Positions 24,725-60,954 of a stretch of DNA of 64,000 nucleotides are shown here, piece after piece. Source of the stretch: Yuukianura sp. NJ FZ-2021 (lineage: Eukaryota); contig CM102289.1 in assembly GCA_046563655.1 (NCBI GenBank), positions 4,464,001-4,528,000 of the forward strand, written 5' to 3'. A program made the translations under genes and the position numbers. Within the stretch, counting starts at the first letter, position 1. Each line of letters opens with the position of its first letter. The notes beneath the pieces are model-generated. The model ran no database searches and was not told where the DNA came from. It saw only the letters and a list, made by a program, of their open reading frames with translations.

Positions 24725-26369
24725 CTACTTTTGTGATTCAAACTGTATGATCACCATAGAGAAAGTCAAGGTCAATCCGCAGACCTATTAAAACACTATT
24801 ATAAATTTAGTATACTTTTTTTTTTTAATAAATACCCTGAATTTCCTTACTGTGCCAAGGAACGACGAGTCGAGACTAATGAACTCAAATGGTTTGATTG
24901 CCAATTTCTCCGACGAAATTTCGTGCAACAACATTACGAGATCACTTTCTTGAAATAGCACAAAGTTTTTCCGAACAACAATCCAGTTGTGGAAAATTGC
25001 CTTGGCCTGAAAATTTCAGTTTGAAATGTAGAAGCAAAGCACATAAGCAAGAATTATTTTAACGAAATTTATTTACGTTCGAGCTAAACTTATAATATTT
25101 ATATTTATGGCTTATGCTTACTTTGGCGTTGAACCATGCCGCGCAAACCAAAAACAGTAGTGGGATCATAGCAAAAACTATACTGTTGATGAGCATTACG
25201 ACTCCAATTGGCTGAATTGCTTGGGGAATGCACTTGATAAGAGCCGGAATGCAACCAAATGCGCAACCGCAAACAGCCAACCCAGTGGCTCTGTTCAGCA
25301 ATTCAACCATAGTTCGAAATTTGCGAAATTCTTGTACTCCCTATAAAGAATTTAGTTTTTTGTTATAATAAATATTATAAAAACTTTCAACGTTAAATAT
25401 TAAAATGGTCAAAGACGAAATAATTTTTCAATTAAAATTCACTTTTTTAATATAAATCGTTTATTACCCTACAAAAATAAGGTGTGAACTTACGTAATCT
25501 GAGGTCATATTGTTTGCCTTTTTTTCTAGATGTAGAATGAGCCTATACATTTGGAGCATTAGGAGCAGCATGAACGTTACTCCGGCAGATCTGAATAAAG
25601 TGAAGACCAATTTTGCTACAATCCCAAATAAAAATCCAATATGATCCGCATATTCCGTCCAAGTACCAAATTTAACAGATTCCAGAAATATCAACCCACG
25701 ACCCCACCATGCCATTCCATCGTAAAGAGAAACAAAGTTCCAGGAATTCCATTCGAGATAGCGCAAGTATTCTGTGACTACATAAAGAGCCGTCACAGTG
25801 GAGATAAAAACCAACGTTTTGCGTTTTCCCTTATTAAATCACAATTTGAAAGTTAAATATAAAAACATTACAGCTTTTCAATTTTTAAAACATTTTAAAT
25901 TGTTTAAACTTTTGCCACATTTTTGATAGGTGCTGTTCCAAGCGTTGCTTTTACAGCCGATGTCTGACTGTAATTGATGAGATCTGCAAATTGAGTTCCT
26001 CTTTGCCAAAAAGATACGAGAAAGCAAGACGCTTTAAAAAAGAGTCCAAAAACGCTTGCTTTTTCAAAATAGTTTAGTTGCTTGTTTAATTTTTTCGTGT
26101 TTTCACTGGAATTAAGGTACCGAACCCATGAATAAATGCTCAGGATAAATATCACAGCAACACAGGTGCTTAGAATCTGAAGAAAAAAGTTAACAATTTC
26201 ATGAAAAAAAAAACATTTTGACGTGAATTTGTACCTTGTGAATACGACTGCTTCTAACTTCCCAAACCTTTGTTTCTGGGTTGATTTTGAGTTTGCATGG
26301 ACTTATCCCAAGGCGATACCAAAATTCAATGTACGTTACGAAGCAGTCCGATATGCTTGCGTCTATCAT
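24725..26369 (-). CDS. Gustatory receptor, family-2 copy B, 6 exons
   Basis: Tandem paralog of 21531-24028. Starts MIDASISDCFVTYIEFWYRLG; last exon VCGLTLTFSMVIIQFESQK*; the junctions checked are GT-AG. Confidence 0.85.
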
Positions 26370-36921: not shown

Positions 36922-39900
36922 ATGAGAGGTAAGGTGGGGTGACAAAGAATTCGTTTTGCAAATACTACGCAAATTGAATTCGCAAATTCATTTCTAATTT
37001 AGATTGATTTTCGTTATTTTTCTTTTGTTGCTTGTTGATGTTACGATGGATGTCATCCGGTTTTGTTCGTTAACTTATGAACACGAATCCAAACTTTCAG
37101 TTGCATTGCAATGCTGTTAACGCGTCGTATACGCAGGTTATTTTGACAAAAAAGAGCCAAAGAGAGCATGCATTGCCGGTTCCATGCCATTGTGTCAATT
37201 GAATTGTATCAACTGCCATTGCATCAACTGAATTGTGTCAATTTGAATTGTATCAACGCTCAATTGTGTCAACGGCTACTTGTATCAACCAACGTAACCT
37301 AACCTAACTTAAGCTAAATTAAGCATTACACTCGTTGATACAATTAGTCGTTGATACAATTGACCAGTTGATACAATTCAAATTGACACAATTCAGTTGA
37401 TGCAATGGCAGTTGATACAATTCAATTGATACAATGGCGTGCTACCGTTTTGCCAGTATCTCTTCAGTCATTTGGCATGTAATACTTAATAATGCGAAAG
37501 AAAAATGTGGCGCGGATGACAAATGACAGTGACACAACGTACGCATCGTGCGAAATGTCAACTTTATGAGAAAAAGTTACAGATAAACTTTCGGTCGTTA
37601 ACTCTATTGTTTTTGAAATGAATTGCAGGAGAATCTTGGGTGACGCTTGTCTTGGAGGAACAAAATGCTTGGGAAGCGCTTGTGTTGGCTCGTTCCCTCA
37701 AAAGATCATTGACGACAAGACGAATCACCGCTGTGATCTCTCCGCTTCTTCCGTATGCATTCAAGTAAGTACTTTTACGCTAACATTCCCATTCCCGAAT
37801 CGGTGCTTTAGCTGATGCGATTTTCATTACTATAGTTTTTAAATTCTGATTCAGATTATCATGTTTTTCAAGTCATTCAACAGTTGATATTCAAACGCAA
37901 GCTTTAAAAGATTAATGCTCAAAAAAGATTACAAGCTCATGAAACAGTGAATTCATAGTTCAAAAACCAAAATTCCCATGACACTTGTTAACCCATTTAA
38001 ATAAATGGAAAGTGTGATAATTTCAAACCTGTGTAGGCGTAATTGTTACTAGCATTTTTCATTTGATGTAATTGTAAAAAGCATTTTTGGTGCAAATTGT
38101 TGCTAATCTCTCGTAACTATGTCAATCCTAATTCTAGCACGTTTGCACGCGTCATGTCTTACCTACTTGAATTGCCATAAAACCATTCATTAGCAGGCAC
38201 TTGCTATAATCCAAAAACAGGTTTTTGAACGTGGCACAAACAAAAGCAATAATTAAGATAAAGTTGAAAAACAATTCCTTCAGACAAACAAATCCCAGTA
38301 TAATTTAAAACTTTCCGTAATTTAAAAATCATTGCGACATTCCTTCTACTAAAGTGACCAAAGAGCTTAAGGGAACATTTTTAATATTTAAAAGAAGTTT
38401 TACACTTTGTGTCGCAACTTCTAAGGTGATAAAGGGCCATTTGAGGGTTAATTATTGCGTGACTAACGCTGACACGAGGTGTACTTAATAGTTTAAGGCC
38501 GTTCTTCATCCTGTCATTTTTTTAAGGTGGCAATGAAATGATCTTTAGCGAGCATCTTTCACATCACAAAATCGTTTGTTTCAGATTTTGTCTCTTTGGT
38601 GTGAAAATCCTTGAAAGATGAATTGAAAAACGAAAATTTGAAAATCCTCCGCCGGAGTAAGGTTTGAATTTATACAGCAGTCAACCATGAATCGTACACC
38701 AAGTACTCACCAATCCAGTATTTCAGTAGTTTTTACGACTTAGTCTTTTGATGTCATAATGTTGCATGCTTACTACACTTTTTAACCTTAACCCTTTTAA
38801 GTGTACAAGAAGTATGGAAGGCGTCACGCCATTTCAAAAAAAAAAGCCCTTCGGTGGCCTTCGCGGTTTCCCAATAACAAAAACACGTTTTTAACATTTT
38901 TCTTCATTTAACAGTTTTCATTTGGGTTTTTCATTGTTACGAGTAGTATGACGCAAAGGGCCAAATGCGGGGGTATTTACAGCAAAAATGGTTTTTTGAT
39001 TATTCAAAATCCTGCCAGTTTAGACAATGCCTCATCTATAATTAATGAAGAAATGGTATTGATTTGTAGCGTTTAGGGTTATGTAATCGTTATGTGCTGC
39101 ATAACCAATTTTACTAACCTTCTTCCCGGTTGACTCGCCAAAAAAGTATATTCGTAAAAGAATACTTTTGGGATTTCTGTTTTCAATTACTATTAGCGAA
39201 ACCCACTTTTTACCCAAATCCGTGTTCCTTCACATACGTCAAAATTCACTTTTTGTTTTTACATAATTTTTAACTATTATGCGATATTATGTTTTTGGTG
39301 TTGACGGAAAAGTGGAATACCTTGAACAAATTAGGTACTGCACGTTAGATTGTGTTTTGCATCATAAGTTGATGTTATAGAAATATTAATTTTTTGTTTT
39401 GAATTTGTTGTGAAACTCAATTTTTTTGTTTCATTAAGACTATTGCTGAGAGATCAGTTCGATTTGGTACTCGAATTGGAGCAAAATGACTTTGATGACG
39501 CAAATGACCTGGGTTTGTACAAACTCTGGATCTGGAATCTCAAGATTTGGACAAACTGCGTATTTATCCAATCAAACTCACTGGTAAGCAGAGGATGGAA
39601 CCTGTTTTTACTTGAATTCAAATTGAGACAACAAAATGCTGTAAAAATTAAGTTGAATCTCAACGTTTCGCGATGATGCAAATGCACATTTTAGGTCCTC
39701 CGGAACGTGGATGAGCTGTTTGGAAAAAAAGGCAATCATGTCCATCCCCTCATACCTGAATGTTTCAAGTTCCAACCGGATCGAAAAACTTTCCTTGAAA
39801 TGATGCGGGAAGCCCGAGAGGCGGATGTTATGACGGCTGACGATCTACTCAAAAAGCACTTTGGAGGCCAACTTAAGTCCGGTTATGACCAGGGTACCAT

Positions 39901-42900
39901 ATTCGCCAAAGCATCCGAAGTTGACATGAGAGCAAAGTAAGGTCACGAGGGTGAAAAGTCAAAGTCAAGCATATTCCAGTTTGAAATGCGTCTTATTAAA
40001 ATTATAAGTACTTTGGTACCAGGGTGTTGCCGAAAGTGGTTGGATTTACTGAATGTCCTTGGACCCTCCTAAAATCTGACAACGGAAACTTACAGGTAGG
40101 GCTTTCATAATTTACAGCATTTTAAATATGCATTTTCCAACATCTTAATTCCTTGTTTTTTTTTAGAACTTTTCTGGAATATGGTTCCAAGTTTTTACTA
40201 AAGAAATTCTAACAACACTTCATCGTCACAAGGTTGGCAATAATTTGAATAATCTGTTATATGTTTTCCTCAAACTATGCCAAAATGAAGTTATTAAAAA
40301 CAATGTACAGGATTCAAGTGTGGAAAAGACTCTGAATGGATCCATCGCCCGACTTCGTCTGCCACCGCGAAACGGCCCTGCTGCTCCTCAACTGGAAATG
40401 CCACTGTCTCAACTTCAAAATACTGTTGCAGTGGTGGGTCTCAGTTGTCGCTTTGCTTCTGCAAATTCAGTTGACGAATTCTGGGACGTTCTGTCGCAAG
40501 GCAAAGATTGCGTTACAACGTTACCTGAAGGACGTCCGCAAGGATTTCGTCGTGATGTGAAATCCAAGAAAGAGATTATGGCGGGCTTTCTCAAATGCTC
40601 GATTGATGAGTTTGATGCCAAGTTTTTTGGAATTAGTCCAAGAGAGGCTCCGTTTGTAGATCCACAGCAACGGATTCTACTGGAAGTGACATGGGAGGGA
40701 TTGGAAGACGCTGGAATCAATCCACTGTCGCTCAAAGAATCTGATACAGGAGTATTTGTTGGAATTTGGCAACAGGACTATGATCACATGATTCCAGACA
40801 ATGGACTGTCGGCCAATGACTTTCATCATCGCTACCTAGGAAATGCTTTCAGCGCCACGGCCTCAAGAATTTCTTATTTCCTTGGCCTTAATGGGCCAAA
40901 CATGGCGCTTGAAAGGTATTGAAAAAGAATTCTCTTAGGGTGCTGCTGCCAGCGTTTGTTGACTTAGATTTTCTTTGAACAGGTTGGATACTACCTAATG
41001 TTTTTTTTTTGCAAAAAAAAGTTTCTTTATATTCTAGGCATCTTAGTTATGTCAATACAGCCAACTGTTTTAAATTTAGCATACAAATGGGTAGCAATTT
41101 TTCGGATTGCTGCTAAAATTGGCACCAATTTTTTTTCCGTTTTTCCCTCCTCAAGCGAGTTAGTGCCCAACCTGTTAAAGAAAATTCAACTTTCTTTGTC
41201 AAAAACCTTGGTTCCTATTGTTATTCTGAATCTCTCTGCCTTTTTAGTGGTTGTTCATCTTCGCTCGGAGCGCTGCATTTGGGATGTGAGAGTTTGCGCA
41301 GAGGAGAAACGAGTTTGGCAATTGCGAGCGGTGTCAACCTTGTACTCAATGCTACAAATCCATTGTCCGGCGACAACGATACTGTTGTGCTGTCGAAAGA
41401 TCAACGCTGCAAAACGTTTGATGAGAGTAAGCAAAAATATTAACCTGCTAATTTACAGAGATTGGAGCAGTAAATATAACTTCTGTTATACAATTTGAAC
41501 AAAACTTATTGAAAGTCGTTAATTTTCCAAGGTGCTGACGGATTTGTACGAGCTGAGGGTTGTGGCGTTTTGGTGTTGAAGCGATACGCTGATGCTAAAC
41601 GGGACGGAGATTTTATCCATGCCCTAATTCGGGGGTCAGCGCTTAACAATGATGGAGCGGGAACTAGTTTTGGGACACCAAATGCTAGAGCACAGGAACG
41701 TGTCATTCGAGAGGCATTGACCAACGCAGAAGTACAACCATCGAGTGTAAGCTACGTCGAAGCTCATGGCACTGGCACTGCTGTCGGAGGTAATTTTTTT
41801 AGAATTCGAAAATTTTATTACTTATTTTTTCAACATTTCAATTTGGCATTCAGTTTAAAATTTTGTCAAATGTTTCAGACCCAACTGAAGTATATGCTAT
41901 TGGGAAAGTATACGGTGAAGGGAGAATGAAACCGTTGATGATAAGCTCCGTGAAATCAAACATTGGCCACGCAGAATCATGCGCCGGAATAGCTGGTAAC
42001 CACCTAATATTAGAATAATGCTTTTTTATGTTATAAACTTGCTAATTGTTTCTTCTTAATTAATCTAAATACTAGGACTCATCAAAGTGATTTTGTGCAT
42101 GAAGCACAACGCCATTCCTCCACATCTCCACCTCAAAACGCTCAATCCAAGGATCAATTTGGACAGCATTCCAGCCACCATCCCAGTGACTCTGACTGAC
42201 TGGACAGACCAGACAAAAATGGCGGGAGTAAGTTCGTTCAGCATGAGCGGCACAAATGTACACGTCCTTGTTCAAGAGCCAATCAAAGACGACCGCCAGC
42301 TCCAATGCTCAACAGTATCTAAAGAAGACAACCCGCAACTGATTGGAATTTCAGCAAAATCCGAGGAAGCACTTGAAATACTCATTGCCAAATACATTCA
42401 ATTTTTGAAATCAGAACATAATTACTCGCTGGAAGAAATTGCTTTTGGAACAAACGTTTGCCGCGCTGCCCTTCCGCACCGAATTTCAGTCATTGCCAAA
42501 ACTTGCGATGATTTGGTTTCGAAATTGGAAAAAGCCGACTTCACGCGTACGCAGAAAGCTACTAAGCCAAGTGTGGCGTTCCTGTTTACAGGTCAAGGGT
42601 CACAGTACATTGGCATGGGCAAAAATCTCTACAAGCACTTTCCAGTATTCCAAAATGCGATGGATGAATGCAACGTATTGTTTCAAAAGAAGTTGGGCCA
42701 GTCGCTGCTTGAGGTCATTTGGGGCGAAAATCTTTTGGGAAAAACAATCTACTGCCAACCGGCAATCTTCTGTGTCCAATACTCCTTGCTACAACTCTGG
42801 AAGTTTTTTGGTATAGAACCGGACGTTGTACTTGGACACAGCGTAGGTGAATTTAGTGCTGCCGTGGCTGCCGGAGTGATGTCACTGGACGAAGCATTCA

Positions 42901-45900
42901 TGCTCGTTGCTGAGCGGAGTCGACTTATTGAAAAAATTCCACAAGGAGGAATGTTGGTGCTCAAAACGACACAAGGAGAAGTCGAAGCAGCTATTGAAAA
43001 ATTCCACATCAAAGAAAAATCTACAAAACCCTGGCTTGACTTTGCCGCTGTAAATTCATCAGAGGAAGTTGTTGTCTCTGCAGAAATGGACACAATTGTT
43101 CGGTTTCAACAATTTTGCAATACTCTGCAATTAAAGTCCCAAATGATCCCAGCTTCGCATGCGTTTCATTCCAGAGCCATGGAAGAAATCCTGGAGACAT
43201 TTGGAAATTTTGCCTCTCAAATTTCTTACGCTCCACCTTCAAAAGCAACTTATATTTCAGGTACTAAATCAACCACATTTACACATATTGTGGAAAACAT
43301 TAACAACGGCGTGGCTATCTGTGTTGGAAGAGTTATAAAATTCTTTTTTTTTGTGCTGTACATTCCAGGTACACTAGCTGAACAAATGACCGGCGATGAT
43401 TTCACTCCAGCGTATTGGCAACGTCATCTGCGTCACACTGTGAGCTTTGCTTCAGCCATTCGGAAAGTGTGGGAGACCGGTGTCCGATGTTTCGTTGAGA
43501 TTGGAGCACAACCGATTCTTCTTGGTCTAACCATGGCCAATCTTGGTGTCCAGTCCTCCAACGCTACATTTTGTCCGTCATTACGTAAAAGTGAAGAGGA
43601 CAGATTCTGCGTATTAGCCACGTTAAGCAAATTATACGGAGGTAGGAATACTTGGGAGTTAAAGATTTTAAATTCCCAGAAAACGCGATAGATTTAAAGC
43701 AGAGTTTCAATTGACGCTGCTTTGCATCGCACAGTTGTCATTTTTGACAAATTAACTGAAACTAATTTTGCATTTTTAATTTACAGCGGGCGTCGAAATC
43801 AATTGGTCGCAATGGTTCGGTCCAAAAAGGAAAGATATTGTCCGCCAGTTACCGAAATACCCATTTCAACGTCAAAAATACTGGTTTTCAGAAGAGGGTT
43901 CAGAAGAGGACGACGGAATGACCTTGCAAGGTGCCCTTATTCATCCCTTACTTGGTCAAAAGCTTCCAGCACCCGTATCACAATCAATATTTTGCAACAA
44001 ACTGAACTCTGCTATTGCTCCGCTGGAATACACAAGTGACCACAAAGTTGCATCTAAAGTCATCTTACCAGCAGCAGCATATTTGGAAACAATTATGGCC
44101 GCCGGTCGAGAAGTTTTGCAAGGAAATGGACTTAAGGTTCCCATGACAGTAGAAAACCTAAGCGTCGAGGCAGCTCTGGAACTCGACTCTCCAGTACGGA
44201 TCCAAGTGATTGTAAATCCAGCAAATTCGGCAGATTTGGTCCATTACTCCATTGGAATTTTTAAGCAAGTTCAAGCAGAAAAGTGGAAACGACATGCCAA
44301 CGGCACGCTGACTCCAATGACCAGCCATGTTGTTCATGACGACAGGATGAACCTCGCAGAAATTCAACAGAAAATGAAACAAACTGGACCAGAGGCGCTG
44401 GAGAAAGCATACGCTGCCATTGCCGGAATTGGAATTCAATTCGGTCCCAGATTTCAAAGTATCAAGAAAGGTTGGAGCTTGACTCGTGATGACTCGGCAG
44501 AACTTCTTACCGAAATTCAAATGCCGCCTGGGCGGGAAGATTATGTTTGTCATCCTGTTGTCCTGGACGCAATGATTCAATCTTACGCTTTTAGAGGCGC
44601 CATGACTTCCCCGGACAACGCCAGTTTACACCTCCAGCTTCCAATAGGAATCAAAAAATTTACGTGGTACTCGGAAGAAGTAACAGACGACGTATACGCA
44701 TACACTACCTGGAAAATGTCCGGCGATGACAGCGGAACAGTTCATTTGTACAATAGCAATGGGACGTTACTAGCTCGTATGGAAGGTTTAGAATTGCTAA
44801 AAACAACGGTAGACTCTTTCTTGAGAGCCCTGCGAGCTGAACAAGTCGATTTGCCCGACTTTTGGCACGAAATTTGGAGACCGACAGAAAGTTTTACCGA
44901 GAAACAAATTTCTTTGACCGTTTTGACCTTTCAGCCAAACGAAGACGGTCAGAAAGTAACAGAAACGTTGAAACTCATTCGAAACTTTGAAAGTGGAGGG
45001 TGGCTGGGAGTGAAAAAGTTGAATTTGGCTTCCACACAAGGATTACTACGAAGTATTGCACAGTGTAAATGGGACATGCCGGTTGGGAAACACTTGGAGT
45101 TGGAGAGTTTGCGTAAACGTCTTCCGGCTAACATGCAGAAAACTAAATTTTTGGAATTTTGTCTCGAAATATTGAAAACAGAGGGTTACGTCAAGCATGG
45201 TGAATTTGGATGGGAAGTGATCACGGCCTTACCGACAATATCAGAATCAACGGCTAAAATTGATGCATTGATTGATGAAGCTGTGATTACCTGTGGAACA
45301 GACGCTGTTGTTGGTTATGCCAAACGAATGATTAGTCACATTGGAGATGTTCTAGAAGGAAAAATGACTTCATTGGCCCTACTTTTTCCAGAAGATCACC
45401 ACACATACGGAGCACAGCGTTATTACTCTGAAGGTAAATTTACAAAAATACTTTCAGTTTTCTAATACAGAACTGATTTTAAAATATTTAATACAAAATT
45501 TTATTTTTATTAGCCGAAATGTACAAATGTTCCGGTGACCTCGTTGTTTCCTGCCTGCTCGACACTGTTGCCAAAATCGAAACAAGTAATAAAAAGCGGC
45601 TCCAAATTCTGGAAGTCGGAGCTGGAACAGGAGCCACCACGGGAGTAATGTTGCAGAAGTTGTCTGAACTTGGAGTTTCATTTGACTACACATTCACAGA
45701 TATTTCTCCACTGTTTGTCTCCGACGCTAAGAAACGTTTTGGAGAAAAGCCAAATCTCCATTTTGAAACTCTCAACTTAGAAGAAGATCCACTTTCTCAA
45801 AATTTTCCACCACAAAGTTTTGACATCATCATTGGTCTACAAGTTCTTCACGCTACAAAAGATCTCAGAAAGACGCTCACACATTTGAACGTTCTTCTGC

Positions 45901-48900
45901 GTCACGACGGCCAGCTCATCTTCAGTGAACAATTCGCCGACATTCCACTGATTTCGCTTTCATTTGGCCTGCTAGATGGGTGGTGGAGATTTGAAGACGA
46001 TCGTCTGCTTGGGCCTATGGTGAGCGTCGATGGCTGGAAGGAACGACTAGGTCAGACTGGATTTGGAGATTGTGGTGCTATGACTATGATGGACGGTACA
46101 AGTGGAACCGTTTGGGCAAGGAAAGTGACCGACATGCCACTAAAGAACATTTCTGAAGGAAAGGCAGCAGAACCCGTTTGGATTGTTGTGGAAGACGGCT
46201 CAGCGCTAAGTTCTTCAATTATTGGAAAGCTAGAAGACCACGGCAGAGAAGCAAGACGCATTAGCTTGATGGAAAGTCTTAGCACTGGATTGGATCCAGA
46301 AGTATTTAAAAACCTCATTTCTGAATTTTTGGAAAAACAGACAAAGTTGGAAGGAATTCTGTTCTTTTGGACTATACAAAATGAAGAAACTATCGCCCGG
46401 GTACAAGAACGCATCTGTGGGAATCTTCTCAATTTGTGCAAAGCAGTAGTGGCCAATAGCGGTAACATGAAAGCAAAGCCACGCCTTGTAACTGTTACGC
46501 GTGGGCTGCATTACATTGGTGACGCAGGACTCGGTAATCCCAATGGAGCCACGTTATGGGGACTTCTGAAATCATTCTGCAACGAAAATCCGGAATTCCC
46601 TACGGTGCTTATTGACGCTAATCCAATCCCAGAACCAGAGATGGAACTCACTGAAATATTTTCTGAACTGTGGACAATGCGAAAACAGCGGGAAATGTTT
46701 TTGTCTTTAAGAGAAGGAAAGAAATACGTCCAGAGACTTGCAGCTTTTGAAAAATCAAAAAATACACTCACGCTACCACAATCGTCTCGCTTTACATTTG
46801 TTAGCCCACCAACCCGAACTTTTTCCGATATTCAAATTGGGCCAGCAGGGAAATTGGAAGTCACTGGAGATCAAGTTGAAATTGCCATCCAAGCCACTGC
46901 CCTTAACTTCCGTGATTTATTTGTTGTATTACGTCCAGAAGGATTTGAACACATGAAAGGCGTTGGACTCGACGTAGCAGGAATTGTCGTATCGAAAGGT
47001 CCTGATGCCAAAGAACTCGACATTGGGGACGAAGTATTTGGGTTTACACTGAAAGGAGGTCTGTGCAGCCATATTGTCGTCAGTGAGCACACAATGATGA
47101 GAAAACCCAAGGCCATGACCTTTACCTGTGCAGCTACAATTCCATGTGCCTTCCTAACTGCGTACTACTCTTTAGTCGAAATTGCAAAAATCTCTAGCAA
47201 AGATCGCGTTCTCATTCATGTCGCATCGGGTGGTGTAGGATTAGCTGCAATTCAAATTGCTCAAAACGTTGGAGCCGAAATTTTTGCAACGGCTGGTAGT
47301 AGAAGAAAACGTGAATACCTTCGATCTCTTGGTATAAAACACATTTACCACTCGCGAAATATCGACTTTGGGGATCAAATTTTAGCAGATACAGAGGGAG
47401 CTGGCGTTACGATTGTTCTAAACTCTCTAACTGGTCCTGGATTCAAAGAAAAATCACTCGGCGCATGCGCTCAAGGAGCTTACTTTTTGGAAATTGGAAA
47501 GTTAAACATTTGGAAAAACGAGGAAGTCCAAGCATTACGTCCTGATGTGAAGTACTTTATCATTGACCTCGCCGGAATGGGGGAGACAGACACACGCCAA
47601 ATGTCAGCCATGATGAAAAGTATGGAACTGCTTTTTGAAAATGGCACCTACAAATCTCTTCCGCATACAAAATTTCCTTTGGAACTCACACGTCAAGCGT
47701 TCTACTTTTTCCAAGAAGCCAAACACATTGGAAAAGTTGTCATCAAAATGCCGAAAGTGGAAATTGCGGAAAGTGATGGACGATTAACTCTGAAAAATCA
47801 ACTGTTTGACCCCCAATGTACTTATCTGATTACCGGAGGACTCGGTGGCCTTGGAATGGAAGTTGCTAAGTGGATGACATCATCTGGCGCTGTAACTGTT
47901 ATTCTTGTGGGCCGAAATCCACCAACTGCCCAAGCTCAGAAACTGATCGATAGCTGGAATGCTGGAGGGAGCTCCATTGTAACAATGCAGGCGGACGTTA
48001 GTAAATACAGTGTATGTGAGGAGATGCTGAAGGAAATTGGGAGGAAGTATCCACCATTACGGGGAGTCGTACATGCAGCAGGAGTAATTTCGGATGCCAT
48101 TATTCCAAATCAGACTTGGGAAAAGTATCAAAGCACACTTGAGCCAAAAGCTTTCGGTGCTTGGCATTTACACAACCTAACGAAAAACTATGATCTCGAC
48201 TACTTCATCATGTTCTCATCCGTTGCTGCCATTGTTGGACTGCCAGGTCAAAGTAATCATTGTGCCGGTAACAGATATTTGGACTCCTTGACACATTATC
48301 GAATTGCTATGGGACTTCCTTCGACTAGTATCAACTGGGGAGCATGGTCGGACGTCGGTGCAGCAGCACACATTAAGTTAGGACAAGAAGGAGCCCTTGG
48401 ACTTCGCGCTTTCACTCCAAAGCAAGGAATTGCATCTCTTGACTACATTTTACGACATGCCTATAATCAGATGAGTATTCTGGACATTAGTGACTGGAAT
48501 GTTGTCAAACAATTTATTCTTCAAGGCAACTACTTATCAGAAATTAAGATGGCTGGAACGGACAGTTCCTCCGGAAGAAATTCAGAAGAATATTCTCAGA
48601 TTATGGAGCAAATTAAGACTTGTAAACCGGAGGAGCGACAAGCAAAAATTGAGGCTTTCTTGGACACGATTTTGAAACAGACGCTGAAACTACCGCCAAA
48701 TGAAACAATTGACCCTGACCAGAACTTTACTGAACTTGGAGTCGACTCCCTCATGGCAATGGAAATGCGAAATCGCCTTCAGGGAGTTCTCGGAGACAAA
48801 ACGTTGAGTGTGAGCGCTCTTCAGGAAAATAGGACTCTCCGCAGCCTTGCTCTTTACATGACAAATTTGATGAGTTCAGAAATCATTGAAGCCCCTGAAC

Positions 48901-50135
48901 AAAATATTCTGAATATGTTGCTCGAAGATTCGAAACTACCCGCTGAAATTGTGGCACCAACTGCAGGGCCCGTCAAACCTTCAAATATACGCAAAGTTCT
49001 TTTAACCGGAGCGACTGGTCATCTAGGAGCATACTTTTTGCCTAAATTGGTTGAGAGAGGCCTTGAAGTTACTTGTCTCGTCCGCGGAAGTAGTAAAACA
49101 GAAGCAGAAGAGCGCTTGCGTAAAGTTGTTTCCAAATATGAGCTCCTGGTGGAATGGGAAATGGTTTCTATTGAAGTTGGAGACGTGTCTAAAGATCTAC
49201 TGGGATTGTCCAGTGAACGCTACACTGAACTGGCAACAGAGATAGACGCTGTGATTCACTGCGCAATCAAATCCAACCATGTGGAGGGTTACCATCAAGG
49301 GAATGATGCTGATGGAAGTGGAAGTATGAGAGTACAAAACGTTTTCGGTCTAAGGAATGTCATTGCGTTTGCGGCTACAGAAAAAACAAAAGCAATCCTT
49401 CATGCATCCTCTATCCTAGCCATTAATCGGATTAGCAAAACTGGCACATTGGACGAAGAATTCCCTGCAGAAGATAACCATGGAGACGGAATTTCAAATG
49501 GATACAGTTTGACTAAACTAATTTCGGAGAAACTGTTAGCAGAGGCAGAGAAACGCGGAATTCCTGTCACAGTGTTGCGCTACCCCGGTATCTTCGGAGA
49601 CAGTCGTACTGGATTAATGCCCATTGAAAATAACCATGCCTGGGGGTTGCTTCTGGCTTGCATGCGCGTGCGCATGTTTCCAGAGATGGGACATCATGGC
49701 CTTCCGATGATGCCGGTAGATGTAGCTGTCCGGATTTCAAATGAACTGTTCTTTAACGATGGAGTTGAGCGCGGGATTTACAATTTGACGAGTGAAAATG
49801 AAGCGACGGAGGGAGTACTTCAGGAGGTAACGGCAGAATTTGGAACGGCAGGAAAGTTCGTTCCATTTGGAACTTGGAGAGACGCAGTTTTTGAGAATTT
49901 GGATTCGAGTGAACTGTCTTCCATGTTGTTTTTGTATGAAGACACAAAGGCGGAAGGAAGTGACGTTTCCACACCCAGATACGTTGGATTCCATCCTCTG
50001 GCGAAATTATCTAACGTTAACTTTTCCATGCTCAGTGAAAAGCTGAAACGAAATTTTCCTGATGTCGAAAGCGTATTAATCCCCGCCAAAGAAGTACTTC
50101 GTGTGCATCTCAAACATCATTTCAACAAAATTTAA
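36922..50135 (+). CDS. Glycogenin-like (GT8) domain fused to a single-module reducing type I polyketide synthase: GT8*-KS-AT-DH-cMT-ER-KR-ACP-R, ~3184 aa
   Basis: Exons 36922-36928, 37629-37764, 39439-39583, 39695-39936, 40023-40095, 40167-40232, 40311-40915, 41248-41426, 41532-41789, 41879-41995, 42076-43260, 43369-43641, 43787-45433 and 45514-50135 total 9555 nt. All introns are GT-AG and phase-consistent. Motifs: [51 protein letters not shown]; c[54 protein letters not shown]. Confidence 0.88.
37177..37447. mobile_element. Palindromic MITE in intron 1 of the GT8-PKS gene
   Basis: Imperfect TIRs CGGTTCCATGCCATTG and CAATGGCGTGCTACCG; mirrored internal TGTRTCAA repeats; central AACCTAACCTAA. 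Confidence 0.8.
40968..41184. mobile_element. Small inverted-repeat element in the intron splitting the KS active-site motif
   Basis: TTCTTTGAACAGGTTGGATACTA ... TAGTGCCCAACCTGTTAAAGAA are inverted matches. Confidence 0.5.
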
Positions 50136-51917: not shown

Positions 51918-54159
51918 CTAACAAATTAAACAATTGTTTTGTTTTTTAATCCTAGCTCTCTCCGTTTCATGCTGCATACCGCACTTGTCTCGTTCAAGTT
52001 CAGCCATGGCAATCTCCTTTTCCTTTTGCATTCGAATCCGAAGATTTTCATTCTCGGCTTGAACTTGTTTGGCTCGGATGTTTTGCTCATGCGCCCTGGC
52101 TGCAGCCGCCTGCTCAGCTTCATGTCTAATTTTAGCCATGTTTGCTTCTTGCTCGCTTTTGCGAATAAATTGTTTAGTCTCCGAGTCTATTTTGGCTTCC
52201 TTGAGTCTAGTTTCTTCCGCAAATTTTGATTTCTCCAATTCCATTTTCTCAACCTCAACTTTAGTTTGCATTTCAATCTCTGCTTTCATTTTTTCAGCAT
52301 CAGCGTTGATTTTAGCAACAGTTTCCACCTTTTCCTTTTGTATGCCTTCCCGTCCTGTCTTTCCTTCCTCCTCCAATTGTTTAATTTTGAGCTGGCATTC
52401 CTTTTCAACTGCATGCATTTGCTGAACGGCAGCCATCTTGATTTCAGCAACTTTGGCTTCAAGCTCGCGCATTTTCAATATTGCGGTGTGTCGGATGTTC
52501 TGCATTTCAAGTGCTTTGTCTGATAATTTGGCAACAATTTCTTGGTTTGAATAGACTTGTTCGCTACAAGCCTTGAGTTGGGCATTCCCGAGCGAGTTGT
52601 CCGAATCAACAACCTGCTTTTGTTGTAAATGATTAAGGAAAATACACAGCCCGATGCAGACGCCAACGGTAACGAGCAGAACAAGAAGTTGAGAAGTGTA
52701 GGCCTAAAAATACCAATAAATGCGGAATTTCTATATGAGTCTGTATATTGATTGAATTCTCAATTATCAAGTTTAGCTTTTGGTTTTGGTTTTATGAAGT
52801 GTAGGCCTGAACAGAACTATTCCGAAATTACTCTTAAAATGGTTTGATCAAAATTTCGCAAAATAGTGGATATTTGTAAACATGTAGTAAACATTACACT
52901 ACACTTACCAAAAATGCCAGCAGGAATACAAGTGAAGGAATTCCAACGAAAATCAATTCTTTTGGGCAAGCTTCAAGGACAACTCGAAGTGTTTCGCCTA
53001 ATCCAACCTTGTGCTTGTCTTGGTGTTGTTTGGCTTGGACTTGCAATTCTACCACTGACGCCAAACTAAAGTAAGCATAAAAGGGGACAGTAGTAATGAA
53101 AGTTGATCTTAATTCATTTCCGGTTTGATGAAAACACATTAGAATACCTGGTCGGTTTGGAGATGGAACCTAACATATCAGTCATCGCCCTCAAATTATC
53201 GGAAGTATTTTCTTTGAGGTAAATAGCCGCCGTATCTTTCAAATCGCAACTGTCCAGCGTCAACTCCTTGTTCCCATCGTTCTGTAAAATTTTAAATTTA
53301 TCAGAAGCGTTTTCGCTTTTTAATAGCGAGTCGAGTTATTTTAACGTAGCCTATCTGACAACTGGACACACTCCATGTGGATTTGGAGTTAATGTTTCGT
53401 TTTTGTAAGAAAATTTGAAATGTTTTATGTGCTGCTCATAAACCGAAAATCCGGCAAATTCCCGTTAACGTAACTACCCCTAAATAGCCAGTAGTGCTGA
53501 AAAATATTTCACATGTCTGAAAATTATAGTTTGGGTTTTTGGTAAGTGGCATTTCTGCAGAAGTCACCGAGGACATTCTGGAGCGATATTTATTCACTTT
53601 ATTGTAAAAATGAAAAACTTTGTTGACGTTTTCTGAGAAGAAAAGTGTTAAACCTTTTCCTCAACATCACGCCAAATGTCATCCAAAATTAATAACAACA
53701 GAAACCTAGTACGTCTCGACTTTGGTGACAAAGACGAGATTCCAAGGTCACGCGCTCAAGTCTAGTGTTGATAGGTCTCATTCCTTTGGACGGTGAGTCA
53801 TGTACATAATTTTTGATTGGTTAGGCTAAGTATCATGGAGTTAGACCATTAATTGCGGCAATACTCGTTCATAATCTGCCGACTCTGAGTTGACCAGTCT
53901 TAGGATTAGATTAGAATGTTCATCAGATTAGGAGTTACTGTCGTTATTGTAATTTACATTAATCTACATATCATAAAAGCATTATTCTAATTAATTGTGA
54001 CATTTTAAGTAGAACCCTTACCCGAGTAGCCAACGCTTCGGAAGAAGTTTTAGGCGCATCTTTGCAAAGTGTCTTGTCATCTTCATCTATTTCTTCAATT
54101 GTTGTACTTGTGTCTTGCGTAGTTTGACCCCCGACATAGCTTGTGCTGTTGCCCATCAT
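51918..54159 (-). CDS. Orphan hydrophobic-hairpin + coiled-coil protein with C-terminal CaaX (CLIC), ~404 aa
   Basis: Exons 54159-54022, 53281-53148, 53065-52909 and 52703-51918 join in frame (1215 nt). Starts MMGNSTS; hydrophobic stretch LIFVGIPSLVFLLAFL|AYTSQLLVLLVTVGVCIGLCIFL; E/K/A/Q-rich heptads; ends KKQNNCLIC*. Confidence 0.75.
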
Positions 54160-55268: not shown

Positions 55269-56500
55269 ATGGCTGATTCTTCGACAAACTGTTCTCCAGG
55301 AATGGTAATACAATATTTATGATAGTATTCTTATTTCGTTTTACAATGTTTTCTATTTGTTTCTAAAAACTAAAAATAAACGTTATAACCGTGTCAATTT
55401 TTAGGTGACCTCGGCAAAACTGTTCGACGAAAGGGTCGAACGGAATGTTGAATCCATTCTGTCTAATGTAACTTCCATTCACATTGTATAGTTTTAGATG
55501 CAAGTTTTATATATTTGGGTATGGACTGAATAACATCGCTAATGAAAGTGTTTAACTTTAAATTATTTTGGTGTTTCAGACAGACAATGAAATTCGTAAA
55601 ATTAAAATGCAAACAAGGAATGACGTTCAAAAAATCGACAACGCCGTTTACTCTCAAATGCAGGACACTCTGAATACTATGATAGACAATGAAGAAAAAT
55701 GTCAAACAGCGATGAACTCATTGGAGCAACATGGAATTGCACAGCGCGAAAAAATTCAAATGGACCATGTCAAGCAAATGAATACGATCGCAGAAGACCG
55801 ACAACAATTCGAGTCCCAACTGCAGGATTTTGAAAGAGACGAAATCCAAGTCCTTGAAAACGCCAAAAATGACTTATTTCATCACACAAAAGCGGAATTG
55901 CAAAACATCAAGCAGCAAGATGAACATTTTAATCTATCGCGTAATGAAGAAGAGAAAGAAATGGAGGAATTTTATTTGCGGCAAACTCAAAAACAAGAAG
56001 AAGAACTTAACGAAGCACAGAACAGACTGAATCAATCTCATTTAAAAAATATGCAGAGTTTTGAGGACGAAATGCGGAAATTCCGGGAAGAACAGAAAAG
56101 GCAATTGGCTGAATTTGAAGCAGAGGAAAAAAGAAAACAGGAAAAAATAAAAAAGAAGTCTTGGTACCAGAACTTGAACTTCCCATCCGTAAATTTTTTT
56201 GGCAGTTCTTCGTCTTCGTCAAATCCAGACTCGAACTTCCCTCCACCTAGAGTTACTTCCAATCCACAGTCACGTCAATGGGAGGCGACTACAAATTCAA
56301 ATAGACAAAGTTCGAGTTACGCGCCATATCGATACAATTGCAATCCGCAGTCAGGTCAACGGAAGCCTAATCCAGGAAATTCAAATCAAGCGATGAGGAA
56401 ACTGCCTGGGAATAGCTATTGCAGGGACAAGCACACTCCCATTGCCGGTGCAACGGCAACTTCTAACCCCATCGATTTAGATCAACTTGAATTGGACTAA
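55269..56500 (+). CDS. Orphan coiled-coil protein with S/N/P/Q-rich disordered tail, ~339 aa
   Basis: Exons 55269-55304, 55405-55467 and 55580-56500 join in phase 0. Long E/Q/K-rich helical region. Confidence 0.65.
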
Positions 56501-57146: not shown

Positions 57147-58218
57147 TTAGTTTGGTTTCCACGAAGATCTAATTCTGGCAGCTTCTCGTTGGCTTTCTTC
57201 CAATTGACGTTTCAACTGCTCTTTCGTGCTCCTTAATTCTTTGCTGGCTTGTTGAACGCTCTGTCTGTGTTGTATTTTATGTGCATATATATCATTCTGC
57301 GCCTTTGCTTGCATTACTGATGTCATGATCTTTGCCTCTTGACGACAATTCTCCGTCAGTTCGTCCTCTTGTGAGGTCACTGTATCAATATCGTGTTGTG
57401 CCTGCCTTTGTTTAATGCGGACTCTGGACTTCATCTGGTTCTCAGTAACGGAATGACTAATGCTCACTAAATCCAAGGCCGCTTTGGATTTTTCTTCAGT
57501 ACGAGCTAGCATTTCATCTCCCTGTGAATAAAATCACTTTGCAGCTTCAAGATTGAAATAAATCTTGCACTTTCACAAATGAGTTTAAAAAATGGAACAT
57601 GACTAACTAAGCAACGCTATAACATCAAGGTTAGATTCTTTGAAAAAGTTGTTGCTATGCCAGTTACTTTGCACTGCCGGGTATATTGAAGTATTTCAGA
57701 AAAAAATTTCAAGGAATGTCAAAAAATCCAAAAGCGACAATAATAACATATTTTTTAAACACTGGCAGCAGCTTGTTTACAAGACCCAGTGCGTTATTTT
57801 ACGCCATGTCACAATATTTTTTTAAATAAGCCGGTTTAGTTTAACCTGTTTGAAACGATTACACATTTTCACTTCAAATTCCACAACTTACAATACTTTC
57901 TGCATAGTCACTGAACATTTGCGTTTTGATTAACGCAGTTGACAGCTGAGAAGCGTCAACCTGGCGCTGAATTCTAGTCTCCGTTGTGTTCCTGACGTAG
58001 ACTGCAATTTGATATATCGCAAATAAAAGAGCGGGAGGCAGAATCAGGAGGTAGACTGAATTTGTATAAATCTGAAATATTAAAATCTATCAAAAATATA
58101 CCAACTAAAGTAAAGGCATGTTGTATACACGTTTTTGTTAGTTTAACCTTACAAAGACACAGAGTCCCAGAGTAAAAGGAACGATAAAACAAGCCCATAG
58201 CTTCAAATTTCCACTCAT
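57147..58218 (-). CDS. Orphan hydrophobic-hairpin + coiled-coil protein, ~183 aa
   Basis: Exons 58218-58153, 58071-57961 and 57521-57147 give MSGNLKLWACFIVPFTLGLCVF|IYTNSVYLLILPPALLFAIYQIAVYV...|GDEMLARTEEK... Confidence 0.7.
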
Positions 58219-59826: not shown

Positions 59827-60954
59827 TCACTCGACTTCTTCAATTACTGGACCTGATGGAGGGCAAGATAATTCTAAAAGTCTGGATCTTGGCATACTAG
59901 AAATTCCTGAACTCCCCAATCCTGAAAATCCGGATCCCAAACGACTGGGCGGTGTTCCTGAAAACCCCGATATTGTGGTCCTAGAACTCCCAGAGTGTCC
60001 AGATTCTGACGTAGCGGCGTTACCCAGCAGGCCTAATCCCACGCCAAGGGCCCCGAGTGCCGGCGTCTTTGTCAGAGCTGCAATTCCAAGCGTCGAAGCG
60101 ATTGCGTTGAGAGGATTGTTCGCTGCTTGCCTCTCTGCTGACTCTGTTTTAATCCGAGTCCTCTCCAATTTTTGGACTTCTTGAAACTTTTTTAAATCGA
60201 TTTCTTTTGCAAACATATTTTCAGCCCCCTGAATCTTTTTGTCGGTAATCCTCAAGGCAGTGTCGCTTCTCTCGTGGGCAATTGCCAAGTTAGTGGAACA
60301 CCCTAGCTGAAATCTAGAAGTTTCTTTGTCTTGCATCATTTCGTTGGTTTTGTAGTTCAATTCTCCAAGGAGTTTTTGCGTTTTGGAATTTCGTTTACTT
60401 TCTCTTTCTCGTTGTTCTAAAACCGATCGCTCAAGGCCAAAGCGCCCAAATTCCAGTTTTTCGGTTGATTCCAATGTTTTTGAGAACATGTTCGAATGTA
60501 CTTCCAATGCTGTTGTTTTATAAGTGTGGTCCAATCTTCCTAGAGTTTCCGACGTTCTAGCCTGTAGTTCGGCTCGTAAATTCTCCCCTGTTTGCAAAGT
60601 GTCCATAAGTTGGCTTGCAGTGGCCAGTCGCTCCCGCTCCACACCGACATCCATTGTCTTAAGTTCCTGGGCCGTTGTGCAATTTAAAAGGGCAACTCTC
60701 TCTGCACTTTGGGCTTGAAACTTTTGGCCTTCCAACTGTAGCTTAGTTATTTCTATCGCAGATTTGGCTTGGTGAGCAGCGATGGCTTCCTTCGTTTTAG
60801 TGGTGATGACCACAGTGTCACGATTTGCCCACAAAATTAAGACTGTGAGTAAAACAACCAGAATTGCCACACCGCATACTAAGAGTGTAGCGTCCTAAAA
60901 TTGAAAAAAAAAATGAAACAGTCTTTCAAAAAGCATTTAAAGTAACCTCACCAT
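59827..60954 (-). CDS. Orphan N-terminally membrane-anchored coiled-coil protein ending in GPVIEEVE, ~356 aa
   Basis: ATG-only exon (60954-60952) plus exon 60894-59827. TM segment LLVCGVAILVVLLTVLILW; long coiled coil; second hydrophobic Gly-rich patch; G/S-rich tail. Confidence 0.75.

What the first reader, a model, noticed from the sequence alone, without database searches (positions are those of the whole stretch)
40311..50135. PKS part is bacterial-style, suggesting horizontal acquisition and later intron gain
Seen: motifs typical of bacterial modular PKSs ([55 protein letters not shown]), an apparently intact cMT and a C-terminal reductase. Animal FAS instead has a pseudo-MT and a thioesterase. 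Introns are dense in the GT8/KS part (10 before the AT) but absent from the 4.6-kb last exon. Inference: a microbial PKS was transferred into an arthropod genome and domesticated by fusion to host exons. The animal flanking genes and spliceosomal introns argue against contamination.
Basis: partly seen in the sequence, partly recalled or inferred. Interest (0 to 1): 0.72.

Follow-up and report, generated by a model that had tools for sequence, protein, structure and literature searches.

The report
Bacterial-type polyketide synthase fused to glycogenin-like domain
An arthropod-type genome carries an intact, intron-split polyketide synthase gene of bacterial type whose front end is a glycogenin-like domain, one member of a gene family also found in a springtail, so it looks like an old gene transfer of a kind already reported for springtails, here with an unreported fusion.

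Summary
Window 37629-50135 (+) encodes one large gene: glycogenin-like (GT8) domain, then KS-AT-DH-cMT-ER-KR-ACP-reductase. It has 11 GT-AG introns in my model, and one more is inferred upstream.

All five quoted motifs are present. I count 8 introns seen plus 1 inferred before the AT, not 10.

Among the 240 best database hits, 56 carry an organism name: 11 are from the springtail Orchesella dallaii, 45 are bacterial, and none is fungal or from another animal. Against solved structures, bacterial PKSs score far above animal FAS (KS 105-116 vs 70-76 bits).

The window gene, the Orchesella paralogues and intron-bearing metagenome copies form one clade with support of 100. No bacterial sister group is resolved.

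Base composition and codon use match the neighbouring genes, so the gene is an old resident and not contamination.

The GT8-PKS fusion is also present in 8 Orchesella proteins and 3 metagenome loci. Its DxD metal-binding motif is lost in all 11 copies read.

Transferred PKS genes in springtails are already in print. I found no paper describing the fusion. I could not build a tree that includes animal FAS or animal PKS sequences.

The parts
37629..37764 (+). Exon A: N-terminus of the glycogenin-like (GT8) domain. It begins just after an AG acceptor and has no in-frame ATG, so a short start exon must lie upstream (not found).
   Evidence: 47% identity to Orchesella P0122 residues 5-44, E 8.9e-07; all 18 PDB hits of this exon alone are glycogenins (E 0.11-1.2). 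Searches give the splice sites.
39439..39583 (+). Exon B: GT8 domain, including the position of the DxD motif, which here reads Q-S-N.
   Evidence: One search aligns the relatives' equivalent stretch to the glycogenin DxD.
39695..39936 (+). Exon C: GT8 domain (NVDELF motif and a DQG motif). The donor AA|gtaagg at 39936 is preferred; alternative ends are 39893 and 39919.
   Evidence: This exon alone finds nothing in the PDB.
40023..40095 (+). Tentative exon C2 (24 codons) of the GT8 domain. Its phases fit the strong donor at 39936 and the strong acceptor at 40166.
   Evidence: the model is stop-free and the phases are consistent. The profile score cannot separate it from models without this exon (153.6 vs 154.6 and 154.7 bits).
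40167..40915 (+). Exon D: C-terminal part of the GT8 domain, a linker and the first 165 residues of the KS, all in one open frame. This is the physical fusion point.
   Evidence: KS N-terminal, E 2.4e-44; similarity to the relatives' GT8 end from about 40290.
41248..41426 (+). KS exon carrying the active-site Cys (SGCSSS). The intron before it splits the codon before Gly-Cys.
41532..41789 (+). KS exon with the first catalytic His (EAHGTGT).
41879..41995 (+). KS exon with the second catalytic His (NIGHAES).
42076..43260 (+). End of the KS, the CurL-like KS-AT linker and most of the AT (GHSVG; HAFH, the malonyl-type motif).
   Evidence: AT E 1.1e-49, CurL-like_PKS_C 7.9e-16; CurL 266 bits.
43369..43641 (+). 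End of the AT and the post-AT linker.
43787..45433 (+). DH exon (HPLLG and LDAMIQ motifs) and the start of the linker to the cMT. An alternative end is 45334.
45514..50135 (+). Last exon, 4622 nt, no intron: cMT (LEVGAGTG), ER (GGVG), KR (GGLGGLG, with His where the catalytic Tyr is expected), ACP (DSL), thioester reductase ([13 protein letters not shown]) and the stop codon. An alternative start is 45616.

Best explanation
The locus is one intact gene of about 3,200 codons for a single-module, presumably iterative, highly reducing type I polyketide synthase. Its order is glycogenin-like domain, then KS-AT-DH-cMT-ER-KR-ACP-thioester reductase.

Shown:
- The PKS body is of bacterial cis-AT type.
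- It belongs to a multi-copy family whose members, wherever I could read their DNA (the window and the metagenome loci), carry spliceosomal introns. Members are at least 11 paralogues in the springtail Orchesella dallaii and about 30 contigs of one metagenome.
- The family splits into two subfamilies, and the window sits in the one without named members.
- The glycogenin-like domain is fused in frame in both subfamilies, and its DxD metal site is lost.

Inferred:
- An ancestor of these arthropods took up a bacterial PKS gene long ago. The gene had time to take on host composition and to diverge to 43-48% identity within the family.
- It became joined to exons derived from a host glycogenin-type gene before the two subfamilies split.
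- It then multiplied, and introns were gained and lost copy by copy.

Likely working (inferred from motifs): the AT loads malonyl units. KS, KR, DH and ER build a reduced chain that the cMT can methylate. The terminal reductase releases the chain as an aldehyde or alcohol, giving a branched lipid-like product. The glycogenin-like domain is most likely a non-catalytic dimerising or docking module.
For: Domains and motifs.

GT-AG introns inside the KS.

Hits: searches (best 120 of 481 hits; best 120 of 777) together give 56 organism-named proteins: 11 Orchesella, 45 bacterial, 0 fungal, 0 other eukaryote.

PDB scores, KS exon: bacterial modular PKSs 105-116 bits, MAS 104.8, Dictyostelium PKS16 91.4, human, mouse and pig FAS 69.8-75.6, fungal psoA 69.9.

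PDB scores, AT exon: CurL 266 bits, DEBS about 158, fungal NSAS 136, LovB 97. No animal FAS appears in the best 60 (all below 77.7 bits).

Trees:
- KS-AT, 210 rows, FastTree, and 34 and 74 rows, IQ-TREE quick: the window, 9 Orchesella proteins and P0141 form one clade with support 100.
- cMT-ER-KR, 129 rows: a 21-row clade with support 100.
- 44 rows rooted on 14 bacterial rows: subfamily A (support 99, holds the window) and subfamily B (98, holds Orchesella).

Relatives are eukaryotic: the breaks in their DNA are GT-AG introns.

Host-like composition: GC 0.44 and GC3 0.39-0.44 against 0.34-0.47 and 0.34-0.47 in neighbouring ORFs; RSCU r = 0.84.

Eukaryotic genes upstream in the window: TCP-1, isocitrate dehydrogenase and a ClC channel. 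An arthropod-type receptor-like ORF is a lead only.

Fusion: glycogenin-2, E 5.4e-31 over profile positions 5-250; 36 of 36 stop-free splice combinations keep GT8 and KS in frame; GT8 exons upstream of the PKS in L002, L015 and L040.

Model length of about 3,207 codons matches the 3,198-3,235 residues of the Orchesella proteins.

Print: the Folsomia genome paper reports 30 type I PKS clusters with most genes flagged as transferred (passages). Lin et al. 2024 found very few PKSs in arthropods and cite a Folsomia PKS as horizontally acquired (passages).
Against: - No tree with metazoan FAS, FAS-like PKSs, echinoderm or vertebrate PKSs, or fungal PKSs could be built. The bacterial affinity rests on score rankings and on who is absent from the best hits, not on a rooted phylogeny.
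- No bacterial sister group is supported.
- The window's KS-AT identity to the best bacterial rows (43-44%) is nearly that to Orchesella (43-47%).
- In 185,579 species genomes no bacterial relative exceeds 39% identity in the cMT-KR part, so there is no donor.
- Most hits are unnamed (184 of 240) and could hide eukaryotes.
- No RNA evidence: the start exon, exon C2 and the C/D junction are models.
- The KR has His where the catalytic Tyr is expected, so full reduction is not assured.
- The window's own GT8 exons find glycogenin only weakly (E 0.11) or not at all, and Pfam sees no GT8 domain.
- The host being a springtail is not shown.
Confidence: 0.8

Rival explanations
1. Vertical descent: the family is an ancient eukaryotic or metazoan PKS lineage kept in a few arthropod lines and lost elsewhere. 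Its likeness to bacterial PKSs would then reflect slow evolution, not transfer.
For: The family is old and fully host-like in composition. No donor is resolved. Identity to bacteria is only 31-44%. No tree with metazoan PKSs was made.
Against: 0 of 56 organism-named hits among the 240 best are non-springtail eukaryotes. Animal FAS and the Dictyostelium PKS score below bacterial PKSs. Some copies (L011, L040, L008) have PKS bodies with no intron over 6-8 kb while the GT8 part of L040 is split. Lin et al. 2024 report very few PKSs among 18,039 arthropod KS genes (passages).
Confidence: 0.1
2. Transfer from a fungus. Fungal highly reducing PKSs share the KS-AT-DH-cMT-ER-KR-ACP order, and springtails feed on fungi.
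For: The domain order is the same. Pfam gives a weak hit to a fungal-type ACP model (PF23297, E 0.00087, below its cut-off).
Against: No fungal protein is among the 56 organism-named hits. Fungal LovB scores 97 bits and psoA 69.9, against CurL 266 and 112. The KS-AT linker matches the bacterial CurL-like and RhiE-like models.
Confidence: 0.05
3. Contaminating bacterial DNA, or an assembly chimera that joins bacterial and host sequence.
For: None beyond the bacterial-type protein similarity.
Against: There are 11 modelled GT-AG introns, four of them inside the KS. One exon spans the GT8 end and the KS start. Composition matches the neighbours and the introns are AT-rich (GC 0.15-0.34). Eukaryotic genes lie in the same window upstream of the gene. 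The same architecture occurs in Orchesella proteins and in metagenome loci.
Confidence: 0.01

Closest known systems
Horizontally acquired type I PKS genes of the springtail Folsomia candida (BMC Genomics 2017, PMC5490193; cited in Nat Commun 2024, PMC10764717)
   Same: These are bacterial-type type I PKS genes resident in a hexapod genome and read as horizontal transfers. They are many copies per genome (30 PKS clusters reported). Lin et al. treat such arthropod PKSs as likely transfers.
   Different: I saw passages only, not the sequences. Neither passage mentions a glycogenin-like N-terminal domain, a terminal reductase or intron patterns. No Folsomia protein appeared among my 240 best hits, so whether it is the same family is untested.
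Bacterial single-module cis-AT PKSs with KS-AT-DH-cMT-ER-KR-ACP(-R), such as P0145 (Iphinoe, cyanobacterium), P0011 (Anaerolineae) and CurL of the curacin pathway
   Same: The domain order is the same, including the terminal reductase in P0145, P0158, P0161 and P0182. The KS-AT linker is CurL-like. A subset of these bacterial proteins shares the His variant of the KR motif.
   Different: The bacterial proteins are only 31-44% identical and carry no GT8 domain (for P0145 and P0121). I did not look for introns in the bacterial loci. The window gene has introns and host composition. My recall, from no call, is that such bacterial enzymes (the sponge-symbiont 'Sup' type) are thought to make methyl-branched fatty acids.
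Animal fatty acid synthase and animal FAS-like PKSs
   Same: Both are single-module type I megasynthases with KS-AT-DH-(MT)-ER-KR-ACP in an animal genome.
   Different: Animal FAS scores lower (KS 69.8-75.6 bits, against 105-116 for bacterial PKSs) and is absent from the best 60 for the AT exon. The window's methyltransferase motif I is intact and the protein ends in a reductase, not a thioesterase. That animal FAS has a pseudo-methyltransferase and a thioesterase is textbook knowledge, not tested here.
Glycogenin (GT8), such as human glycogenin-2 (4ueg) and rabbit glycogenin-1 (1ll2)
   Same: The relatives' N-terminal 250 residues align over the whole catalytic domain (E 5.4e-31 to 5e-29). 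The window's exon A hits only glycogenins.
   Different: The DxD motif is absent in all 11 copies read. The His of the VVHF stretch seen is Gly in the window. Pfam's GT8 model does not match. The domain is fused to a PKS rather than standing free.

Membership tests
Type I cis-AT polyketide synthase, highly reducing single module | KS with the Cys-His-His triad | tested here: met
   SGCSSS, EAHGTGT and NIGHAES are present. Pfam KS N-terminal E 2.4e-44, KS C-terminal 4.8e-16.
Type I cis-AT polyketide synthase, highly reducing single module | An in-line AT with GHSxG, and an ACP with the DSL serine | tested here: met
   GHSVG and HAFH; DSL in ELGVDSL. AT E 1.1e-49, PP-binding 1.1e-13.
Type I cis-AT polyketide synthase, highly reducing single module | A full reducing loop: DH (HxxxGxxxxP), ER (NADPH site) and KR (NADPH site plus catalytic Tyr) | tested here: inconclusive
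   The DH, ER and KR cofactor motifs are present. The KR reads GQSNHCAGN, with His in place of the expected Tyr. The same variant occurs in 14 of 19 matched clade rows and 22 of 54 matched bacterial rows; 56 rows did not match the pattern.
Type I cis-AT polyketide synthase, highly reducing single module | C-methyltransferase with SAM motif I | tested here: met
   LEVGAGTG; Methyltransf_12 E 3.9e-18. The motif I residues, plus a His and a Glu, are invariant in 9 clade members.
Type I cis-AT polyketide synthase, highly reducing single module | Makes a polyketide (activity) | not testable with these tools
   No expression or product data. No RNA run was listed.
Animal FAS / FAS-like PKS clade | KS closer to animal FAS than to PKSs | tested here: not met
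   PDB bit scores: FAS 69.8-75.6 against bacterial PKS 105-116. FAS is not in the best 60 for the AT exon. This is a score ranking, not a tree.
Animal FAS / FAS-like PKS clade | C-terminal thioesterase | tested here: not met
   The C-terminus is NAD_binding_4, E 8.7e-44. No thioesterase family appears among the 23 Pfam hits.
Glycogenin / GT8 glycosyltransferase | Sequence similarity over the catalytic domain | tested here: met
   The profile of 8 Orchesella N-termini hits glycogenin-2 at E 5.4e-31. The window's exons are homologous to those N-termini (best E 8.9e-07). Window exon A alone gives E 0.11.
Glycogenin / GT8 glycosyltransferase | DxD metal-binding motif | tested here: not met
   The window reads Q-S-N. 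The Orchesella copies read D-P-E, S-P-K, S-P-D, E-P-T, S-P-N, E-P-S, S-P-N and E-P-N. L002 reads D-P-T and L040 D-P-N.
Glycogenin / GT8 glycosyltransferase | Match to Pfam's GT8 model above its cut-off | tested here: not met
   No GT8 family is reported for the window exons at E up to 1 or for the 8 Orchesella N-termini at E up to 10.
Horizontally acquired springtail PKSs (Folsomia type) | Direct homology to the published Folsomia PKS (OXA62418.1) | not tested
The nearest named relatives are from another springtail, Orchesella dallaii.

The most novel reading that the evidence does not exclude
Springtail-type arthropods built a chimeric megasynthase that no bacterium or fungus is known to have: a host glycogenin domain welded to a bacterial PKS that ends in a reductase. 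The glycogenin-like domain would still do sugar-related work. It might bind a UDP-sugar and glycosylate the released polyketide alcohol, or tether the enzyme to glycogen or another glycan. The family would then make glycolipid-like or specially placed branched lipids of the cuticle or of chemical defence.
Probability: 0.12. Interest if true: 0.8.

Novelty: new variant of a known kind. Interest (0 to 1): 0.5.

Why it matters
Animals rarely make polyketides with PKSs of bacterial type, and springtails are one of the few reported cases. This locus gives a clean, complete example.

It shows how such a gene was naturalised: host composition, introns gained and lost copy by copy, and a fusion to a host-derived domain that is kept in both subfamilies, which suggests selection.

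If the products are found, they could explain unusual branched lipids or defence compounds of soil arthropods.

The fusion is also a natural experiment on adding a eukaryotic domain to a bacterial assembly line.

The transfer itself is not new; only the architecture and the family structure are.

Tried and rejected
- Own genome: none is held, so I could not search for paralogues or the host's own FAS.
- Earlier findings: nothing by place, sequence or words.
- RNA: no RNA holder was listed, so there was no read-based test of splicing or of the fusion.
- Search for GT8-PKS fusions with P0122 residues 1-250: it found only the query. It also missed the known paralogues, so it had no power and says nothing about how widely the fusion occurs.
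- Representative-library search with the AT exon: 58,140 hits. The best 150 are almost all giant multi-module PKSs ranked by summed scores, with one close fragment (P0387, 57% identity). It was not informative about a donor.
- Careful IQ-TREE run with bootstraps: not finished in the time allowed. The quick tree (SH-aLRT only) is reported instead.
- Pfam on the window's GT8 exons and on the Orchesella N-termini: no GT8 hit. Exon C alone against the PDB: no hit.
- My early guess that the ORFs at 10986-12059, 13306-15744 and 17279-18409 are gustatory or ionotropic receptors: Pfam gave no family. Only the language-model atlas points to arthropod receptor-like clusters for 13306-15744 (a lead).
- Splice model of the C/D region: profile scores cannot choose among the models (131-133 bits; 153.6-154.7). 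The choice rests on splice signals and phase.
- Donor search in 185,579 species genomes: 80 loci kept from many phyla, all at 31-39% identity. No donor emerged.
- A paper search with 'animal polyketide synthase' or 'arthropod' was too loose and gave nothing useful.
Full report
**What is there.**
Pfam finds KS, the KS-AT linker, AT, DH, a C-methyltransferase, ER, KR, ACP and a thioester-reductase-type NAD_binding_4 domain. E-values run from 1e-13 to 2.5e-66.

The catalytic motifs read as follows:
- KS: SGCSSS, EAHGTGT, NIGHAES.
- AT: GHSVG and HAFH. The malonyl reading of HAFH is my recall.
- DH: HPLLG and LDAMIQ.
- c[10 protein letters not shown].
- ER: GGVG.
- KR cofactor site: GGLGGLG.
- ACP: DSL.
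- Reductase: TGATGHLG and YSLTK.

The one oddity is the KR motif GQSNHCAGN, which has His where the catalytic Tyr is expected. The variant is not private to this gene. It occurs in 14 of 19 matched rows of the arthropod clade and in 22 of 54 matched bacterial rows; 56 rows did not fit my search pattern.

**Gene model.**
No RNA run was listed, so the model rests on homology and splice signals. I enumerated GT/AG pairs, kept the stop-free ones and scored them against profiles of relatives. This gives the following exons:

| Exon | Coordinates |
|---|---|
| A | 37629-37764 |
| B | 39439-39583 |
| C | 39695-39936 |
| C2 (tentative) | 40023-40095 |
| D | 40167-40915 |
| KS | 41248-41426 |
| KS | 41532-41789 |
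| KS | 41879-41995 |
| KS end, linker, AT | 42076-43260 |
| AT end | 43369-43641 |
| DH | 43787-45433 |
| Last | 45514-50135 |

The KS introns are unambiguous, with one or two stop-free candidates each. One of them splits the codon just before Gly-Cys of the active site. Two points are not settled by scores: the C/C2/D region (131-133 bits; 153.6-154.7 bits) and the last junction (449.8 vs 452.3 bits). For those I chose by splice consensus and phase.

Exon A begins after an AG and has no in-frame ATG, so a short start exon lies upstream and was not found. Before the AT I therefore count 8 introns plus 1 inferred, not 10. Three more follow, and the 4.6-kb last exon has none. The model of about 3,207 codons (3,177 plus 30 from the revised exons) fits the 3,198-3,235 residues of the Orchesella relatives.

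**The front end is glycogenin-like and truly fused.**
Three Orchesella dallaii PKSs that I scanned (P0122, P0125, P0133) have 255-270 residues before the KS with no Pfam hit. The first 300 residues of eight such proteins match the window's upstream exons in order:
- 37631-37750: 47% identity, E 8.9e-07.
- 39434-39592.
- 39695-39889.
- 40290-40420, running on into the KS.

A profile of those eight N-termini hits human glycogenin-2 at E 5.4e-31 over nearly the whole catalytic domain, and glycogenin-1 at about 1e-29. The next GT8 protein is at 2.6e-11.

The window's exon A alone finds only glycogenins (18 of 18 hits, but weak, E 0.11-1.2). Exon C alone finds nothing. Pfam sees no GT8 domain.

Exon D holds the end of this domain, a linker and the KS start in one open frame. 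All 36 stop-free splice combinations keep the two parts in frame. GT8 exons also lie upstream of the PKS in metagenome loci L002, L015 and L040.

The glycogenin DxD aligns to a stretch with an invariant Pro in the middle and no canonical DxD in any of the 11 copies read. The window reads Q-S-N. The domain is therefore most likely not a working glycosyltransferase.

**Whose relatives.**
With the 1547-residue last exon as query, the best 120 of 481 hits and the best 120 of 777 longer hits include 56 proteins with an organism name:
- 11 from Orchesella dallaii, a springtail, at 35-38% identity.
- 45 bacterial (Anaerolineae, Chloroflexi, many cyanobacteria, myxobacteria, mycobacteria and others), at 29-37%.
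- No fungus and no other animal.

The other 184 hits are unnamed. Several bacterial proteins have the same order including the terminal reductase (P0145, P0158, P0161, P0182).

Against solved structures:

| Target | KS exon (bits) | AT exon (bits) |
|---|---|---|
| Bacterial modular PKSs | 105-116 | about 143-176 (DEBS about 158) |
| CurL | 112 | 266 |
| MAS | 104.8 | 126 |
| Dictyostelium PKS16 | 91.4 | 115 |
| Mammalian FAS | 69.8-75.6 | not in the best 60 (below 77.7) |
| Fungal PKSs | psoA 69.9 | NSAS 136, LovB 97 |

This is a ranking of scores, not a phylogeny.

**Trees.**
All rows came from my own hit lists, so no animal FAS, animal PKS or fungal PKS is in any tree.

- KS-AT, 210 rows by 843 columns, FastTree: the window, 9 Orchesella proteins and the unnamed P0141 form one clade (support 100, stem 0.49). 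The window is sister to the rest.
- KS-AT, IQ-TREE quick runs with 34 and 74 rows: the same clade at SH-aLRT 100, with no supported bacterial sister. The bootstrap run did not finish.
- KS-AT identity: window to Orchesella 43-47%; window to the best rows outside the clade 43-44%.
- cMT-ER-KR, 129 rows: a clade of 21 (support 100) holds the window, 11 Orchesella proteins and 9 unnamed proteins.

A scan of metagenome contigs returned 79 loci. About 30 of them, at 35-65% identity, come from one metagenome. Their breaks against the window protein are GT-AG introns, so these relatives are eukaryotic too.

A 44-row tree rooted on 14 bacterial rows splits the family in two:
- Subfamily A (support 99): L015, L003, L005, L001, the window, P0002, L002 and L004.
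- Subfamily B (support 98): all Orchesella proteins, L040, P0001, P0007, the L008 group, L046 and P0141.

GT8 exons occur in both subfamilies (the window, L002 and L015 in A; Orchesella and L040 in B). The fusion therefore predates the split.

**Introns.**
In window protein coordinates, the KS introns at 417.7, 477.3 and 563.3 are shared with L015, the basal member of subfamily A. L002 keeps only the first. The introns at 602, 997, 1088 and 1637 were seen only in the window.

The subfamily B copies with KS DNA (L008, L011, L040, L046, L025) have no intron there. L011 is unbroken over residues 246-3114.

An intron between KR and ACP sits at two nearby sites in at least 12 loci of both subfamilies. 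The window, L011, L010, L024 and L007 lack it.

The PKS body therefore carries few, copy-specific introns, while the GT8 part is split wherever it was seen. This fits a body that arrived without introns. Losses also occurred, so 'later intron gain' is only half of the story.

**Resident, not contaminant.**
- PKS exons have GC 0.44 and GC3 0.36-0.44.
- Neighbouring ORFs have GC 0.34-0.47 and GC3 0.34-0.47.
- RSCU correlates at r = 0.84.
- The introns have GC 0.15-0.34.

The window also holds split eukaryotic genes upstream of the PKS: TCP-1 chaperonin, isocitrate dehydrogenase and a ClC channel. An 812-residue ORF has nearest atlas clusters that are arthropod, some of them ionotropic receptors (a lead only). 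My guess of gustatory receptors was not borne out by Pfam.

**Donor.**
None can be named. In one genome for each of 185,579 prokaryote species, the 80 best loci come from many phyla and reach only 31-39% identity in the cMT-KR part. The exhaustive library search was swamped by multi-module PKSs. Two hints exist and they disagree: the CurL-like AT and linker, and the His variant of the KR shared with Anaerolineae- and Chloroflexi-labelled proteins.

**What is known.**
- The Folsomia candida genome paper reports 36 biosynthetic clusters, 30 of them type I PKS, with most genes flagged as horizontal transfers (passages).
- Lin et al. 2024 found very few PKSs among arthropod KS genes. They cite a Folsomia PKS as horizontally acquired and suppose the same for other arthropod PKSs (passages).
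- Searches for springtail plus polyketide synthase (32 papers, 20 listed), for Collembola plus transfer plus PKS (17 papers) and for glycogenin plus polyketide synthase (9 papers, 8 listed) showed no title or abstract about a glycogenin-PKS fusion. I did not read those papers in full or open any supplements.

**Verdict.**
What is new here:
- The conserved fusion to a degenerate glycogenin-like domain.
- The two-subfamily structure of the family.
- The pattern of intron gain and loss.

The main gap is a tree with metazoan and fungal sequences.

Noticed in passing
window 48200-48260 (KR motif in the last exon); proteins: The KR has His in place of the catalytic Tyr (GQSNHCAGN). The same variant occurs in 14 of 19 matched clade members and 22 of 54 matched bacterial relatives, among them Anaerolineae- and Chloroflexi-labelled ones. 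It is either a working variant or a shared loss of ketoreduction. It may also be a marker of the donor group.
   Followed up: partly
L001-L019, L023-L025, L040, L044, L046, L064: One metagenome holds about 30 contigs of this PKS family at 35-65% identity to the window, with GT-AG introns. It therefore contains DNA of a small arthropod with a large expansion of the family. L023 shows overlapping, frame-shifted pieces and may be a pseudogene.
   Followed up: partly
window 10986-12059 (+) and 17279-18409 (+): Two clearly paralogous multi-pass membrane ORFs (similar by eye from the first residues on) flank the 812-residue receptor-like ORF at 13306-15744 (-). Pfam finds no family for any of the three.
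   Followed up: partly
window 21870-22601 (-) and 25059-25838 (-): This looks like a tandem duplicate pair. The ORFs at 21870-22142 and 25059-25340, and those at 22257-22601 and 25464-25838, are similar by eye. No family was sought.
   Followed up: no
window 51918-52703 (-), 55562-56500 (+), 57147-57533 (-), 59827-60894 (-): Downstream of the PKS lies a run of ORFs rich in Glu, Lys and Gln that look like coiled coils. Two of them (51918-52703 and 59827-60894) begin with a hydrophobic stretch. Pfam gave nothing for the first.
   Followed up: no
window 18846-19493 (-) and 19534-20454 (-): Two adjacent Cys-rich ORFs with spaced cysteines look like secreted repeat proteins. Pfam found no family for the second.
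   Followed up: no
window 42078-43280: The KS-AT linker plus AT exon matches the cyanobacterial curacin protein CurL far better than any other solved PKS (266 bits, next 176). The KS exon shows no such preference.
   Followed up: no
P0123 (Orchesella, 2983 residues): This is the one full-length Orchesella family member whose protein model has no glycogenin-like N-terminus; the KS starts at residue 36. That could be a real loss or an annotation that missed the upstream exons.
   Followed up: no
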